Shown: in pieces, positions 12,001 through 15,000 of the stretch
Layout: each line of letters starts with the position of its first letter
Position numbering within the stretch: position 1 is the stretch's first letter
IMG/VR virus record: IMGVR_UViG_2724679237_000005
Coordinates: 1 to 64,000 of that record
DNA: 64,000 nt
Direction: 5' to 3' (one strand)
Source of the DNA: a virus
Lineage: Duplodnaviria > Heunggongvirae > Uroviricota > Caudoviricetes
Program-made: the position numbers

Positions 12001-15000
12001 AGTAGTACTTCTGGCTGCGGTTGTATGTGTCCACACAAAATTCGCTCATATCCATAAAGTCAGCATCATCACCCAGGTCGCTAATCATCAAAGCAGGTGC
12101 ATCATCACGAGTCATCAGCTCCAGCACCCATCTTGAATTAATCAGAGTGGAAGACCAACCTTCCAGCTCATAAAACTGGTCAAACTCTTTTTGAGTCAAT
12201 TTCTTAATTTGGTTGATGTCGATATGTGCAAACATAAAGCAATCCTTAAACAAGATGTTTTCTTAATGGTGTTATTATCGCAATAACGCACAGGCGAAAA
12301 AAGGATTTTATTCCGGTGAATGTGGTTTTGGCAGTGAGTTTTCAGGTTCAGTACAGAGTACACTTTTTACATTATTCTGATTTAGTGGCCGAAGATGGCT
12401 GGTGGGCAGAATAATCATCTCCCCGAAAACCTACTGAAATCGATTGTGACCCGTTGGCTGTCTGGCACAATTACGCTGTAACTGGGCATTCAGAGGGAAT
12501 CCAGCGGTAAGTAGGTTCGCCTTCACGTGAGCGCCTCTCTTCTTCCCGAACATTGCAGGTGGCCAGCCGCAACTCTCCCTCTCGCTATACCGGTACGCCG
12601 CCGTTCCTGAACCGGCATCGAGCCTTTTCCCGAAATCCACACAGGCAACTCGACCGTTTCCCTGAAAATCCCCAGCCGTTCCCCGAAGGCAACCCAGCCG
12701 TTTCTGTAGCGGGATGCAGCCTTTTCCCTGTATGGACCGAAGGCTGACCGTAGGAGTGTTACGGGGGATAAAATCAGGAGTTGAATAAATACGAAAAAGG
12801 AGGCGACACCCCTCCTTCCCTCCCCACTTATACATACCTTGCTTCTTCGCTATACATGTTGTGTTTTCTTCGTGTTTTATCTGTCTCAACCTCTCTATAG
12901 GCGTTAATGCTTACTCCTTCCAGAAACTTCTATACGGCGACTATTTCTGTTGGTGAATTGGGTGTGTTGTTTTCTCTGTCGGTGTATGTGGTTTCGTTCG
13001 TTTTGCGGTGGTTCTTCTATGGGGTGTTCTCGTCGTTTTGGTGATTGTTCTTCTCCGTGTATGGAGTAATGGCAGGTGGGCGATTCCTTTCGTTATTGTG
13101 TTTGAGTTGTTTGTCTGGAGTGCGTGAAGGGCTTTTGTAGTTATTCGTGTATTGGGTAATGGCGTTTCCCGTGATTGTTATGTTTCGTGTCTTTTGGGAT
13201 TGAGAGAAACCTTGCGGTTACAGGCTTCGTTGGGGTTTCAGCGGTTCAGGTGTTTCTTCGCTGTTTGGGTAATGGCGTGTCGTGGGTATCGCGCGTATGA
13301 ATGTTTTCGGATTGCCTGTGAAAGTTAGGTTGGTTGTCCGGTAGCCTGGGGAGAAGAGGTGGGTCTTTTCGGTAGCCTGCCATAAAGAGGTTGGTTGTTT
13401 TGGGTAATGGCATATGTGTTATTTAGTTGTTTTGTTATGCCTGAAAATAAGTTGTTTATATGGTTGTGTAACGCAACGGGAGCGATTTTGAGCGTGTGTT
13501 TTTGTTGGTAGTGTGTTGAGTCGTCTGTAGTGAAAATTGGACGCTGTGGAGCTGTCTGCTGCGTAGGATTACGAGTATAAGAAGTGATGTGTGAAAACGT
13601 CAATTTTTTAGACCAAATCGGGTGAAGGCGTTGACGTTTCGTTGATCTGTTATTCAGTTGTTTTCTTATTGGTATAAATAACTATAACCTATTGATATTT
13701 AAGGATGTGATTGCGGGTATGGAGGGAGGGTAGTGGCGATCAACGGATTCTTATAGAAAAGAATCAAATTGTGACCGCCATTATCAACGGTTTGGTTAGA
13801 TGAGATGGTCTAATTCATCATCTATCATGGCTTTGACGCTGGAGTCATTCACTCCATATTTATTTATGAGCTGTTTCAGCTCTGGCGAAAACTGAAGGTA
13901 GATATCGTGAGCGTTTTTCACTGTAGGTTCAACGCCACGCATTTCAAGCGCCTTTAGTAGATATGAGTCTTCTTTAAGCATAAATTCTCCGTTATCTAGT
14001 ATGAAGCGATTGCCGGATTACCATTGCCAGCACTCAAGCCCTTCAACGACCGGTGCGCCACAATCAAAATGTACAGAGTCAAAGCCTACATCAAGTACTT
14101 TCTGAATGTTCGCAATCGCGCCCTCGGATATACCATATCGACGCAACTCATCTTTCCAGTCATCGTCCTGTAACCCGGCGTGGACAATGCAACCGTACTC
14201 AATTTGTGAAACCCAATCCAGCTCATTGCTTGCGATCATGAATCGGCGAGCATCTTCCTCTGATGTATGAGATGAGCTGATCAATGCCACCTGGTAGGCT
14301 TGGGTAATGTTCAACATTTCAACCACTCCAAAACAAGTTGTTTTCTTATGTGGTTTATTATCTCCATCAACAAAAGGCAGAAAACAAATTGTTTTAGGTA
14401 CTGTGTAAATCAGAAGGGATTGTGTCTATATGAAAATGCCCGGCGTGTTGCCGGGCATTGCGAAGAGAGGTTGTTTAATTACTTAACCTGGTGACCAGGT
14501 TTAGCACCAGCATCCGGGCTTAACAGGAAGATATCTTTCCCGCCGGGGCCAGCAGCCATCACCATGCCTTCAGAGATACCGAAGCGCATTTTACGCGGAG
14601 CCAGGTTAGCCACCATAATGGTGTGACGACCAATCAGTGCCTGTGGATCTGGATAAGCGGAACGGATGCCTGAGAAGACATTACGCTTTTCACCACCGAG
14701 ATCCAGCGTCAGGCGAAGCAGTTTGTCAGAACCTTCGACAAACTCCGCGTTTTCAATCAGCGCCACACGCAGGTCAACTTTGGCGAAGTCGTCAAAGGTG
14801 ATGGTTTCCTGAATCGGGTCGTCAGCCAGTGGGCCAGTTACCGGTGCAGCTGTGGCTTTCACTTCTTCTTTGGATGCTTCCACCAGTGCTTCCACCTGTT
14901 TCATATCGATACGGTTATACAGTGCCTTGAACGGATTCACTTTATGGCCCAGCAGCGGTTGCTGGATACCATCCCAGGTCAGTTCTGTATTCAGGAATGC

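What the first reader, a model, noticed from the sequence alone, without database searches (positions are those of the whole stretch)
12290..13790. 1.5-kb repeat-rich, strand-skewed noncoding region with an orphan class I promoter aimed into it
No credible ORF. The plus strand is strongly G+T-rich. The region holds the CCGTTTCCCGAA-like array (12597-12736), four spaced copies of TGGGTAATGGC, and a CGGTAGCC..AAGAGGTGGGT unit also found at 10163-10245. A class I motif at about 13651-13685 points into this region with no protein gene behind it. Candidates are a long noncoding RNA, a packaging or partition site, or a secondary origin.
Basis: seen in the sequence. Interest (0 to 1): 0.6.

Follow-up and report, generated by a model that had tools for sequence, protein, structure and literature searches.

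The report
Conserved noncoding control locus, phage-plasmid
A 1.5-kb gene-free, repeat-rich stretch with an extreme strand bias and its own regulated promoter is conserved in the whole SSU5/pHCM2/pLF82 family of phage-plasmids; nobody has described it, and it is most likely a cis-acting site of the phage (not the plasmid) life cycle, possibly the lytic replication origin.

Summary
The window is an SSU5/pHCM2/pLF82(Cyrano)-type phage-plasmid. The 1.5-kb gap (12290-13797) is truly noncoding and is kept, in the same place and orientation, in at least 8 clades at 60-75% identity.

It has three parts:
- A (12597-12736): six GCCkTTyCC repeats, mostly 22 bp apart.
- A pyrimidine block with a hairpin and a variable spacer, where the strand bias inverts.
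- B (12891-13610): 0.7 kb, 66-71% G+T in every clade, the strongest skew in the whole 108-kb genome.

B is entered by a genuine, gene-less class I promoter (13658-13684) bracketed by four conserved CGTTGAY sites. The minus-strand RNA would be untranslated, almost structure-free and C-rich/G-poor (C/G 2-4).

Other results:
- The repeats are not the RepA iterons.
- pMT1 and a few family members lack the locus, so it is not needed for plasmid maintenance.
- It is silent in LF82 lysogens.
- No conserved RNA fold or Rfam hit was found.
- A half-copy lies 3.1 kb away.
- An Acinetobacter relative has a non-homologous gap with the same skew inversion.

Best guess (about 0.3): a repressor-gated, transcription-activated lytic origin. 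Rivals: Rho-dependent barrier or leader, decoy RNA, T5 iss-like site.

The parts
12250..12285 (-). Left boundary: class I promoter/operator of the next early gene (about 11906-12237). Context only, not part of the locus.
   Evidence: Matrix score 30.1. Palindrome AAACAAGATGTTT at 12248. Invariant across clades.
12398..12405 (+). Chi site (GCTGGTGG) in a conserved block.
   Evidence: Present at the aligned position in 7 of 12 clade representatives.
12597..12736 (+). Sub-region A: six direct repeats of GCC(G/T)TT(T/C)CC(C)GAA, mostly 22 bp apart (two helical turns). Presumed protein-binding array.
   Evidence: Conserved in all clades, including the distant Klebsiella type L206. GCCNTTNCCC occurs 8 times in the 108-kb Cyrano genome, all in this locus and its paralogue.
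12740..12835 (.). Conserved block. It holds GTTACGGGGGAT, TTGAAT and a pyrimidine-rich run on the plus strand (ACCCCTCCTTCCCTCCCCAC, about 12806-12826). It also holds a hairpin at 12794-12820 that reads as an intrinsic terminator on the minus strand in this clade.
   Evidence: Terminator-like call. The hairpin is kept in other clades, but without a U-run in most. Identity about 0.8.
12836..12890 (.). Variable spacer (20-150 bp in other clades). The strand bias inverts here: plus strand C-rich to the left, G+T-rich to the right.
   Evidence: Identity 0.01-0.29. Alignments. Skew values.
12891..13610 (-). Sub-region B: 0.7 kb of keto-skewed DNA (plus strand G 0.32, T 0.39, C 0.13, A 0.16). The minus-sense RNA would be C/A-rich, G-poor and nearly unstructured.
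   Evidence: MFE of the minus-sense RNA is -8 to -30 kcal/mol per 200 nt, against -33 to -52 for the plus strand. Nine consecutive 78-nt windows have C/G 2.1-4.0.
13045..13411 (+). Four dispersed repeats, TTCTCCGTGTATGGAGTAATGGC-like. The GTAATGGC core starts at 13066, 13156, 13269 and 13404. The reverse complement GCCATTACCC resembles the A repeat (GCCNTTNCCC) in inverted orientation.
   Evidence: The first copy is the best-conserved part of B (identity 0.91).
13305..13396 (+). Three tandem 31-bp units, CGGTAGCCTG-N5-AAGAGGTGGGT-TTTT. Paralogues lie at 10161-10250.
   Evidence: The copy number varies in some relatives (split nhmmer hits in L136, L148, L171).
13427..13457 (.). Operator-like site: TTGTTTTG, 8 nt, then GAAAATAAGTTGTTT. 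This is the half-site plus palindrome of the family-wide AAACAAnTTGTTT operator.
   Evidence: 17.6 bits. The palindrome is perfect in most other clades.
13574..13603 (-). Sigma-70-like promoter, TTGACG-18-TATACT. It is strong only in this clade. Elsewhere the -10 is TATACC, and the TTGACG may instead be one arm of an inverted repeat with 13631-13642.
   Evidence: 10 of 12. Not called in SSU5, Klebsiella or L206. Alignment.
13629..13789 (.). Four conserved CGTTGAY sites bracket the orphan promoter: 13629-13635 (+), 13640-13646 (+), 13739-13745 (-) and 13783-13789 (-). Presumed binding sites of a dedicated regulator.
   Evidence: Found at aligned positions in 7-12 of 12 representatives.
13651..13685 (-). 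Orphan class I promoter, firing leftward into B with no gene behind it.
   Evidence: 28.2 bits, against 21-35 for gene-linked copies. Conserved in all clades. In the distant clade L206 it carries a perfect operator palindrome.
13740..13797 (.). Conserved right-boundary block (GGCGATCAACGG..CTTATAGAAA..TCAAnTTGTGACCGCCAnTnTCAACGG). Sequence to its right is variable cargo.
   Evidence: Identity 0.88-0.92. Alignments.
9468..10250 (.). Paralogous half-module, 3.1 kb to the left. It comprises a GCCGTTTCCC array (9468-9585), the gene 9595-10077 (phrog_1641) with its class I promoter, and three 31-bp units (10161-10250). The spacing between array and units is about 570 bp, as in the main locus.
   Evidence: The two-module layout is conserved in all clades examined.

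Best explanation
The locus is a cis-acting control site of the phage mode of this phage-plasmid. It is most likely the lytic replication origin, gated by immunity and activated by transcription.

Shown:
- It is a conserved noncoding unit.
- A full-strength early (class I) promoter, bracketed by four conserved CGTTGAY sites and followed by an operator, points leftward into 0.7 kb of DNA.
- The transcript of that DNA would be untranslated, nearly structure-free, C-rich and G-poor.
- Beyond it lie a block where the skew inverts and a 22-bp-phased array of six direct repeats.
- The same repeat types occur only once more in the genome, 3.1 kb away.

Inferred:
- In the lysogen the promoter is shut.
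- On infection or induction it fires.
- The unstructured, ribosome-free RNA opens or hybridises to the template (R-loop or transcriptional activation) next to the repeat array.
- A phage protein binds that array.
- The element's own T4-like set then builds forks: DnaB-like helicase, primase, gp32-like SSB, UvsX/UvsY, RNase H and UvsW.

This is the logic of T4 oriE/oriF, lambda pR-ori and P1 P53-oriL.
For: - Conservation: kept at 60-75% identity with indels in at least 8 clades while both flanks vary.
- Size: the Cyrano gene tables list no other gene-free gap this long once the two unsupported ORFs called inside this one are set aside.
- Noncoding.
- Orphan promoter: equals the gene-linked class I promoters and has its own conserved site set plus a downstream operator. 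This matches repressor-controlled origin activation.
- Silent in lysogens: CYRAN_103 is at the floor value and CYRAN_104 near local background, whereas the adjacent moron CYRAN_102 is expressed.
- The direct-repeat array, mostly 22 bp apart, is typical of initiator or accessory-protein binding.
- There is a second cluster of the same motifs 3.1 kb away.
- Not needed for plasmid life: absent from pMT1 and from about five family members. The plasmid replicon with different iterons lies elsewhere.
- The element encodes T4-type R-loop and recombination replication functions: UvsW, UvsX-like RecA, UvsY, gp32-like SSB, RNase H, SbcCD, helicase, primase and Pol III alpha.
- The architecture persists at depth. 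Clade L206, whose UvsW is 71% identical, keeps the C-rich array, the inversion of skew and the keto-rich stretch. The Acinetobacter relative, whose UvsW is 42% identical, keeps the skew inversion without detectable homology, but its repeats are different.
Against: - There is no experimental evidence of initiation here.
- No conserved DnaA or IHF sites and no clear AT-rich unwinding element.
- The replication genes lie about 60 kb away.
- No known phage origin has a 0.7-kb keto skew.
- A C-rich unstructured untranslated RNA is a prime Rho substrate. Rho would oppose R-loop priming.
- The RNA (C+A) on a G+T template is not the G-rich-RNA arrangement that stabilises R-loops in ColE1 or T4.
- No initiator was identified. 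The neighbouring phrog_1641 protein has no recognisable DNA-binding fold.
- Cumulative GC skew is uninformative.
- The sigma-70 promoter and the intrinsic terminator are convincing only in this clade.
Confidence: 0.3

Rival explanations
1. Rho-dependent transcription barrier or long leader. B is an oversized rut region. Any RNA entering from the variable cargo genes or from the orphan promoter is untranslated, unstructured and C-rich. Rho therefore terminates it before the conserved early genes. The C-rich A and pyrimidine block would do the same for rightward transcription. A phage antiterminator could open the gate.
For: - Nine consecutive 78-nt windows of the minus-sense RNA have C/G 2.1-4.0 and MFE of -14 kcal/mol or weaker. 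About half of the top-1% C>G minus-sense windows of the 64-kb window lie in B.
- The MFE is far weaker than for the plus strand.
- The skew is opposite to that of the sense strand of the surrounding genes.
- The skew inverts, so RNA made from either direction is C>G.
- In LF82 lysogens expression drops from the adjacent moron CYRAN_102 (about 57) to the floor value in CYRAN_103 (about 5), with no U-tract terminator seen between them.
- In the paralogous module the C-rich 31-bp units sit between a terminator hairpin and the next promoter, which is an insulator position.
Against: - About 100 nt would suffice for a rut site, whereas 700 nt is conserved.
- It does not explain the phased repeat array, the specific conserved repeats (identity up to 0.91), the second module, or a strong, separately regulated promoter placed at the entrance of a terminator.
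- The early genes downstream each have their own promoter.
Confidence: 0.2
2. Trans-acting unstructured long noncoding RNA (about 0.8 kb, C/A-rich) made early in infection. It would act as a decoy or sponge for a single-strand RNA-binding factor, with GCCAUUACCC and the 31-nt units as binding motifs. Candidate factors are Rho, host Hfq or the element's own FljA/Hfq-like protein, S1, or G/U-rich small RNAs.
For: - A regulated promoter with no ORF behind it.
- Selection for a strand that cannot base-pair with itself is kept in all clades despite 60-70% identity.
- Same-strand motifs recur.
- The family encodes an FljA-like RNA-binding protein with a weak Hfq-like match. The Acinetobacter relative encodes an Hfq.
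Against: - No transcript evidence, and floor-level reads in lysogens.
- No conserved terminator outside this clade.
- No conserved fold and no Rfam family.
- Such an RNA would be rapidly terminated by Rho and degraded.
- It does not explain the array in A, which is phased as for double-stranded DNA.
Confidence: 0.12
3. DNA-level site for genome entry or packaging, analogous to the T5 injection stop signal. This would be a conserved, repeat-rich, untranslated region that binds proteins during DNA transfer, circularisation or packaging, with a partner repeat region a few kb away.
For: - The T5 iss is a 1662-bp noncoding, repeat-dense region conserved among T5-like phages whose neighbouring genes vary. 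It has a related repeat region 3180 bp away (paper 10.1101/866236).
- Here there is a 1.5-kb noncoding repeat region among variable early genes with a partner module 3.1 kb away.
- The locus lies about 12-14 kb from the terminase-proximal junction.
- It is absent from non-phage pMT1.
Against: - The paired DnaA boxes that mark the T5 iss are absent.
- The physical ends and packaging mode of SSU5-type virions are unknown.
- A double-strand DNA site gives no reason for a strand bias.
- The repeats here are direct, not the large inverted repeats of T5.
Confidence: 0.08
4. Plasmid-mode function: a secondary origin, a copy-control iteron cluster, or a centromere for the ParB-like proteins.
For: - The phased direct repeats look like iterons or a type Ib centromere.
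- In the Acinetobacter relative, a 52-bp palindromic site inside the equivalent gap is repeated between the integrase and parA genes.
Against: - The RepA iterons (GTATGCTGYCAGCGGT) are unrelated.
- pMT1 and several family plasmids are maintained without the locus.
- No paralogue of the repeats lies near parA, the integrase or repA in the E. coli type.
Confidence: 0.05

Closest known systems
Phage T4 origins: oriE (early promoter, noncoding RNA, iteron cluster) and oriF/oriG (promoter plus R-loop primer, later removed by UvsW). This comparison rests on my own knowledge, not on a paper read here.
   Same: An early promoter fires into noncoding DNA next to a cluster of direct repeats. The element carries the T4-type UvsW, UvsX, UvsY, gp32 and RNase H set.
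   Different: There is no sequence homology and no RepEA/RepEB-like genes were identified. The transcribed zone is far longer (0.7 kb) and keto-skewed. Initiation was not shown.
Repressor-gated, transcription-activated lytic origins of temperate phages: lambda pR-ori and P1 P53-repL/oriL. This comparison rests on my own knowledge.
   Same: An operator-controlled promoter, silent in the lysogen, points into the candidate origin. The plasmid-mode replicon is separate, as in P1.
   Different: In lambda and P1 the origin lies inside the initiator gene. Here no initiator gene is adjacent and no ORF exists.
Rho-dependent terminators and rut sites, e.g. lambda tR1 rutA/rutB.
   Same: C-rich, G-poor, unstructured, untranslated RNA downstream of a promoter.
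   Different: It is about 7 times longer than needed. It carries conserved specific repeats and a phased DNA array. Rho dependence is untested.
Phage T5 injection stop signal region (Davison, bioRxiv 10.1101/866236).
   Same: A noncoding region of about 1.5-1.7 kb, dense in repeats and conserved while neighbouring early genes vary. A related repeat region lies about 3.1-3.2 kb away.
   Different: No paired DnaA boxes. The repeats are direct rather than large inverted repeats. The position relative to the virion ends is unknown. T5 is not known to have a strand bias there.
Iteron plasmid replicons (P1 oriR-repA-incA, RepFIB).
   Same: Direct repeats about 22 bp apart. In the paralogous module a gene is flanked by repeat arrays.
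   Different: The element's real Rep_3 replicon is elsewhere with different iterons. The locus is dispensable for plasmid maintenance.

Membership tests
Iteron-type plasmid origin (Rep_3/RepFIB/P1-like) | The repeats match the iterons bound by the element's Rep protein and lie next to rep. | tested here: not met
   RepA is at 45238-46452, flanked by GTATGCTGYCAGCGGT iterons. These are unrelated to GCCGTTTCCCGAA.
Iteron-type plasmid origin (Rep_3/RepFIB/P1-like) | Conserved DnaA boxes, an IHF site and an AT-rich unwinding element. | tested here: not met
   No DnaA or IHF consensus is conserved at aligned positions in 12 clades.
Iteron-type plasmid origin (Rep_3/RepFIB/P1-like) | Required for plasmid maintenance. 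| tested here: not met
   pMT1 and about five family loci lack it.
ParB/parS or type Ib centromere | Binding sites adjacent to, or repeated at, the par operon. | tested here: not met
   The motifs occur only in the two early-region modules of the 108-kb genome. No significant match was found upstream of parA.
ParB/parS or type Ib centromere | Binding by the ParB-like proteins. | not testable with these tools
   Needs EMSA or ChIP.
Rho-dependent terminator (rut) | At least 80 nt of untranslated RNA with C>G and little secondary structure. | tested here: met
   C/G is 2.1-4.0 over 700 nt, with MFE -14 kcal/mol or weaker per 78 nt. No ORF.
Rho-dependent terminator (rut) | 3' ends that depend on Rho/NusG. 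| not testable with these tools
   Only indirect evidence: expression falls to the floor just inside the region in LF82 lysogens.
Known RNA families (Rfam 15) | A covariance-model match at the gathering score. | tested here: not met
   0 matches in the whole window.
Structured immunity RNAs of phage-plasmids (P1 c4, P4 CI, N15 CA RNA type) | A conserved stem-loop RNA in a promoter-proximal leader. | tested here: not met
   The structure conservation index is 0.58 or lower everywhere and mostly below 0.35, on both strands.
T5-type injection stop signal | Pairs of DnaA boxes in large inverted repeats. | tested here: not met
T5-type injection stop signal | Location at the boundary of first-step-transfer DNA. 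| not testable with these tools
   The virion termini of SSU5-type phages were not found in the literature.
T4-type transcription- or R-loop-primed origin | An early or middle promoter directed into noncoding DNA, with iterons in the case of oriE. | tested here: met
T4-type transcription- or R-loop-primed origin | A persistent RNA-DNA hybrid and an RNA-DNA transition point at the site. | not testable with these tools
   Needs DRIP-seq or primer mapping.
Class I promoter/operator cassette of this element | Match to TTGTTTTCTTATTGGTGTTATTATC in the minus orientation, conserved across clades. | tested here: met
   28.2 bits for 13658-13684. Conserved. The left half of the operator palindrome is degenerate here but perfect in clade L206.

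The most novel reading that the evidence does not exclude
B encodes an early, roughly 0.8-kb RNA selected to have no secondary structure and a high C, low G content. It would work in trans as a decoy that soaks up host Rho, or an Hfq-like single-strand RNA binder. That would be an RNA-based host-takeover device kept from Enterobacteriaceae to Acinetobacter phage-plasmids by composition rather than by sequence.
Probability: 0.1. Interest if true: 0.85.

Novelty: new variant of a known kind. Interest (0 to 1): 0.6.

Why it matters
SSU5/pHCM2-type phage-plasmids are common in E. coli, Klebsiella, Salmonella (including Typhi), Enterobacter and Citrobacter, and they carry resistance genes. How they switch from plasmid replication to phage replication is unknown.

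The element's longest gene-free stretch is kept across the whole family, has its own regulated promoter, and shows the strongest strand bias in the genome. That makes it the obvious place to look for the switch. It gives a precise target for deletion, origin-trapping and transcript mapping.

If it is not an origin, a 0.7-kb region kept by composition alone, so that its RNA cannot fold, would be an unusual regulatory device.

Tried and rejected
- Rfam over the whole window: no match.
- Tandem Repeats Finder: nothing, because the repeats are too degenerate or dispersed.
- Protein-coding reading, including the two ORFs annotated in Cyrano as CYRAN_103 and CYRAN_104: rejected.
- B as an array of decayed class I promoters: by eye the repeats resemble them, but an ungapped weight matrix finds no more hits than in composition-matched shuffles (3 against 3.4).
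- Conserved RNA structure on either strand: none.
- Single-sequence folding z-scores: unremarkable except near the operator and promoter block.
- RepA iterons: different.
- DnaA, IHF and boxA sites: not conserved.
- Cumulative GC skew of the full Cyrano genome: rises steadily and does not locate an origin.
- Scan of species-representative genomes with a 17-base pattern from the right-hand block: about 53 hits, near chance expectation. Only two Kluyvera contigs are plausible.
- One viral-contig pattern found nothing.
- Paralogue search of the region against the rest of the genome: nothing. Shared 11-mers with the parA and integrase regions are at chance level.
- Acinetobacter gap: not homologous by nhmmer. 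I treat the shared CTCCGTGTATG as possibly chance.
- Literature: no description of this region, and no data on SSU5 termini or on a lytic origin.
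Full report
**What the window is.** The region matches hundreds of 100-115 kb non-mobilizable IncFIB plasmids of E. coli, Enterobacter, Salmonella, Citrobacter, Klebsiella and Cronobacter. It also matches the phages Cyrano (pLF82), PhiR41_1 and SSU5. The window is therefore an SSU5/pHCM2/pLF82-type phage-plasmid. In Cyrano's annotation the locus lies in a run of small minus-strand early genes of unknown function. On one side are a UvsW helicase and an FljA-like regulator; on the other are MetRS and variable cargo.

**Checking the observation.**
- The G+T bias is confined to 12891-13610. There, 100-nt windows reach 0.72-0.83 G+T, against a window mean of 0.50 and sd 0.06.
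- This is the longest and strongest such run in the 64-kb window and in the complete 108-kb Cyrano genome (z 5.4).
- The left third is not G+T-rich, and part of it is C-rich.
- The GCCkTTyCC repeats start at 12600, 12622, 12653, 12675, 12697 and 12719. GTAATGGC starts at 13066, 13156, 13269 and 13404. The 31-bp units start at 13308, 13339 and 13370. The motif counts exceed shuffles.
- A weight matrix from nine gene-linked class I promoters scores the orphan copy at 28.2 bits, within the 21-35 range of real ones.

**It is noncoding and conserved.**
- From 47 full-length homologues I took 12 representatives, which fall into about seven clades at 60-75% identity. One further, more distant Klebsiella clade is also homologous end to end (nhmmer E 6e-35).
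- ORFs differ in place and frame between clades.
- Substitutions show no 3-nt periodicity.
- RefSeq annotates nothing there. The two ORFs called in Cyrano are not supported.
- Conservation is patchy. It is highest at 12740-12835, 12915-13090, 13340-13510 and 13590-13665, and in a sharp right-hand boundary block at 13740-13797. Beyond that block each clade carries different genes.
- The base composition of B is nearly the same in every clade: G 0.30-0.33, C 0.13-0.18, T 0.34-0.39, A 0.15-0.18.

**Anatomy, read in the direction of the orphan promoter (right to left).**
1. Right-hand boundary block.
2. The class I promoter at 13658-13684, bracketed by four conserved CGTTGAY sites, two on each side in inverted orientation.
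3. A sigma-70-like promoter at 13603-13574. It is convincing only in this clade.
4. An operator-like half-site plus palindrome at 13427-13457, of the family-wide AAACAAnTTGTTT type. That palindrome occurs 13 times in the window against 0.46 expected.
5. Sub-region B with its repeats.
6. A variable spacer at 12836-12890, where the strand bias inverts.
7. A conserved pyrimidine-rich block with a hairpin. The hairpin is a good intrinsic terminator only in this clade.
8. The array of six repeats, mostly 22 bp apart (sub-region A).
9. A conserved block containing a Chi site at 12398.
10. The class I promoter of the next gene.

**Properties of the putative RNA.**
- The minus-sense RNA of B would fold to only -8 to -30 kcal/mol per 200 nt, against -33 to -52 for the plus strand.
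- Its C/G ratio is 2.1-4.0 in nine consecutive 78-nt windows.
- That is the signature of a Rho loading region and of an RNA that cannot pair with itself.
- No conserved secondary structure exists on either strand, and Rfam finds nothing.
- In the LF82 transcriptomes (PMC9928086, S1 table), the ORF covering 13325-13681 (CYRAN_103) sits at the floor value and CYRAN_104 near local background. The adjacent moron CYRAN_102 is expressed. So the locus is silent, or its RNA is short-lived, in lysogens.

**What it is not.**
- The element's Rep_3 RepA lies at 45238-46452. It is flanked by its own, unrelated iterons.
- Yersinia pestis pMT1 keeps the UvsW, ParB-like and capsid genes but lacks the whole early region, including this locus.
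- About five of some seventy family loci with enough flank also lack it, and one keeps only the left half.
- It is therefore not needed for plasmid replication or partition.
- No DnaA or IHF sites are conserved.

**A second module.** The three repeat types occur nowhere else in the 108-kb genome except 3.1 kb to the left. There, a GCCGTTTCCC array (9468-9585) follows the gene 9595-10077 (phrog_1641), and three 31-bp units (10161-10250) precede its class I promoter. The spacing of about 570 bp is the same as in the main locus. GCCNTTNCCC covers both the A repeats (plus orientation) and the reverse complement of the B repeats (GCCATTACCC). All eight copies in Cyrano lie in the two modules. The phrog_1641 protein gave a confident model with no known fold, so it offered no lead.

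**Depth of conservation.** In the Acinetobacter baumannii relative (UvsW 42% identical), a 2.2-kb unannotated gap lies in the same early-gene context, next to ardA. An (A+C)-rich stretch (z -3.3) is followed by the strongest G+T-rich stretch of that 27.6-kb locus (z +3.9). The gap is not homologous by nhmmer. The architecture thus seems to be kept by composition. This rests on one distant lineage and a moderate z-score.

**Interpretation.** Three facts point to a function exerted through a single strand made by leftward transcription:
- a regulated promoter with no gene behind it;
- a strand that cannot fold;
- an inversion of skew.

Three other facts point to a nucleoprotein complex on DNA:
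- the phased array;
- the specific conserved repeats;
- the second module.

The one known kind of element that needs both is a transcription-activated replication origin. The locus is also dispensable in the plasmid state, silent in the lysogen, and sits in an element with a T4-type replication and recombination set. I therefore rank a lytic-mode origin first, at about 0.3.

The rivals are:
- Rho-dependent barrier or leader (0.2). It explains the composition best, and also the drop in expression after the neighbouring moron. It explains the repeats and the promoter poorly.
- Decoy RNA (0.12).
- T5 iss-like entry or packaging site (0.08). T5 has a 1662-bp conserved noncoding repeat region with a partner 3.2 kb away. 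It also has paired DnaA boxes, which are absent here.
- Plasmid-mode site (0.05).

About a quarter of the probability stays with none of these.

**Novelty.** I found no description of this region in the searchable literature on SSU5, pHCM2, pLF82/Cyrano or phage-plasmids. That search misses subscription papers such as the original pHCM2 analysis. I file the locus as a new variant of a known kind: a cis-acting phage control region, probably an origin or a transcription gate. Its 0.7-kb keto skew with inversion is the feature that has no precedent I know of.

Noticed in passing
whole window: Chi (GCTGGTGG) occurs 13 times in 64 kb against 1.3 expected from shuffles, on both strands. One copy lies in the locus (12398) and two lie beside the paralogous array (9427, 9551).
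   Followed up: partly
window 10098, 10862, 11764, 12248, 14331, 14382, 25467, 26181, 26910, 37130, 55251, 61288: The palindrome AAACAAnTTGTTT (13 copies against 0.46 expected) sits between the -10 element and the ribosome-binding site of most small early genes. It looks like the operator of a master repressor with dispersed sites, as in P1.
   Followed up: partly
window 7006-7530 (+): Encodes an FljA-like protein (Pfam Flag1_repress, E 5e-81) with a weak Hfq-like C-terminal match. FljA is an RNA-binding translational repressor, yet the gene is annotated as a transcriptional repressor in SSU5. The Acinetobacter relative encodes a true Hfq (L261 36851-37390).
   Followed up: no
window 45233-46983: The plasmid replicon: Rep_3 RepA (45238-46452) with GTATGCTGYCAGCGGT iterons on both sides.
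   Followed up: yes
window 8980-9460: An AT-rich gene-free stretch with ACGCGC/GCGCGT repeats and one consensus DnaA box (TTTTTCACA, about 9302). It lies where the plus- and minus-strand gene blocks converge, just before the second GCCGTTTCCC array.
   Followed up: no
window 28271-28450: A second, much shorter G+T-rich stretch (0.72-0.75), apparently inside the ORF 27820-28461.
   Followed up: no
L004 (Klebsiella pA2359-IMP) 4900-5470, and seven other listed Klebsiella plasmids of 140-275 kb: A 340-560-bp piece of the locus (window about 13240-13797: last repeats, operator, promoters, boundary block). In pA2359-IMP it sits next to IS elements. It is probably a recombination remnant.
   Followed up: partly
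L207 (Acinetobacter) 20498-20566 (+), 20575-20597, 20620-20672: A 22-aa hydrophobic ORF (MLTALIVLGAIGLIYLMLKAMK), a bidirectional terminator and two GCAAATATTTGC palindromes lie inside the Acinetobacter gap. This looks like a type I toxin cassette.
   Followed up: no
L207 19861-19912 and L261 26841-26892 (Acinetobacter plasmid NZ_CP096896.1): A 52-bp imperfect palindrome rich in GGTAATA/TATTACC lies inside the Acinetobacter gap. It is repeated (87% identity) between the integrase and parA genes, so it is a candidate recombination or centromere site. No equivalent was found in the E. coli type.
   Followed up: partly
[not shown]
   Followed up: yes
SSU5 (L002 7275-7517), pHCM2, Enterobacter and a second Salmonella plasmid: These clades carry an extra 243-bp plus-strand ORF inserted at the left edge of the locus (equivalent to window about 12296). 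One Salmonella plasmid (L010) also has an insertion of roughly 250 bp at about 13396. The edges and the 31-bp unit zone are therefore insertion-tolerant.
   Followed up: no
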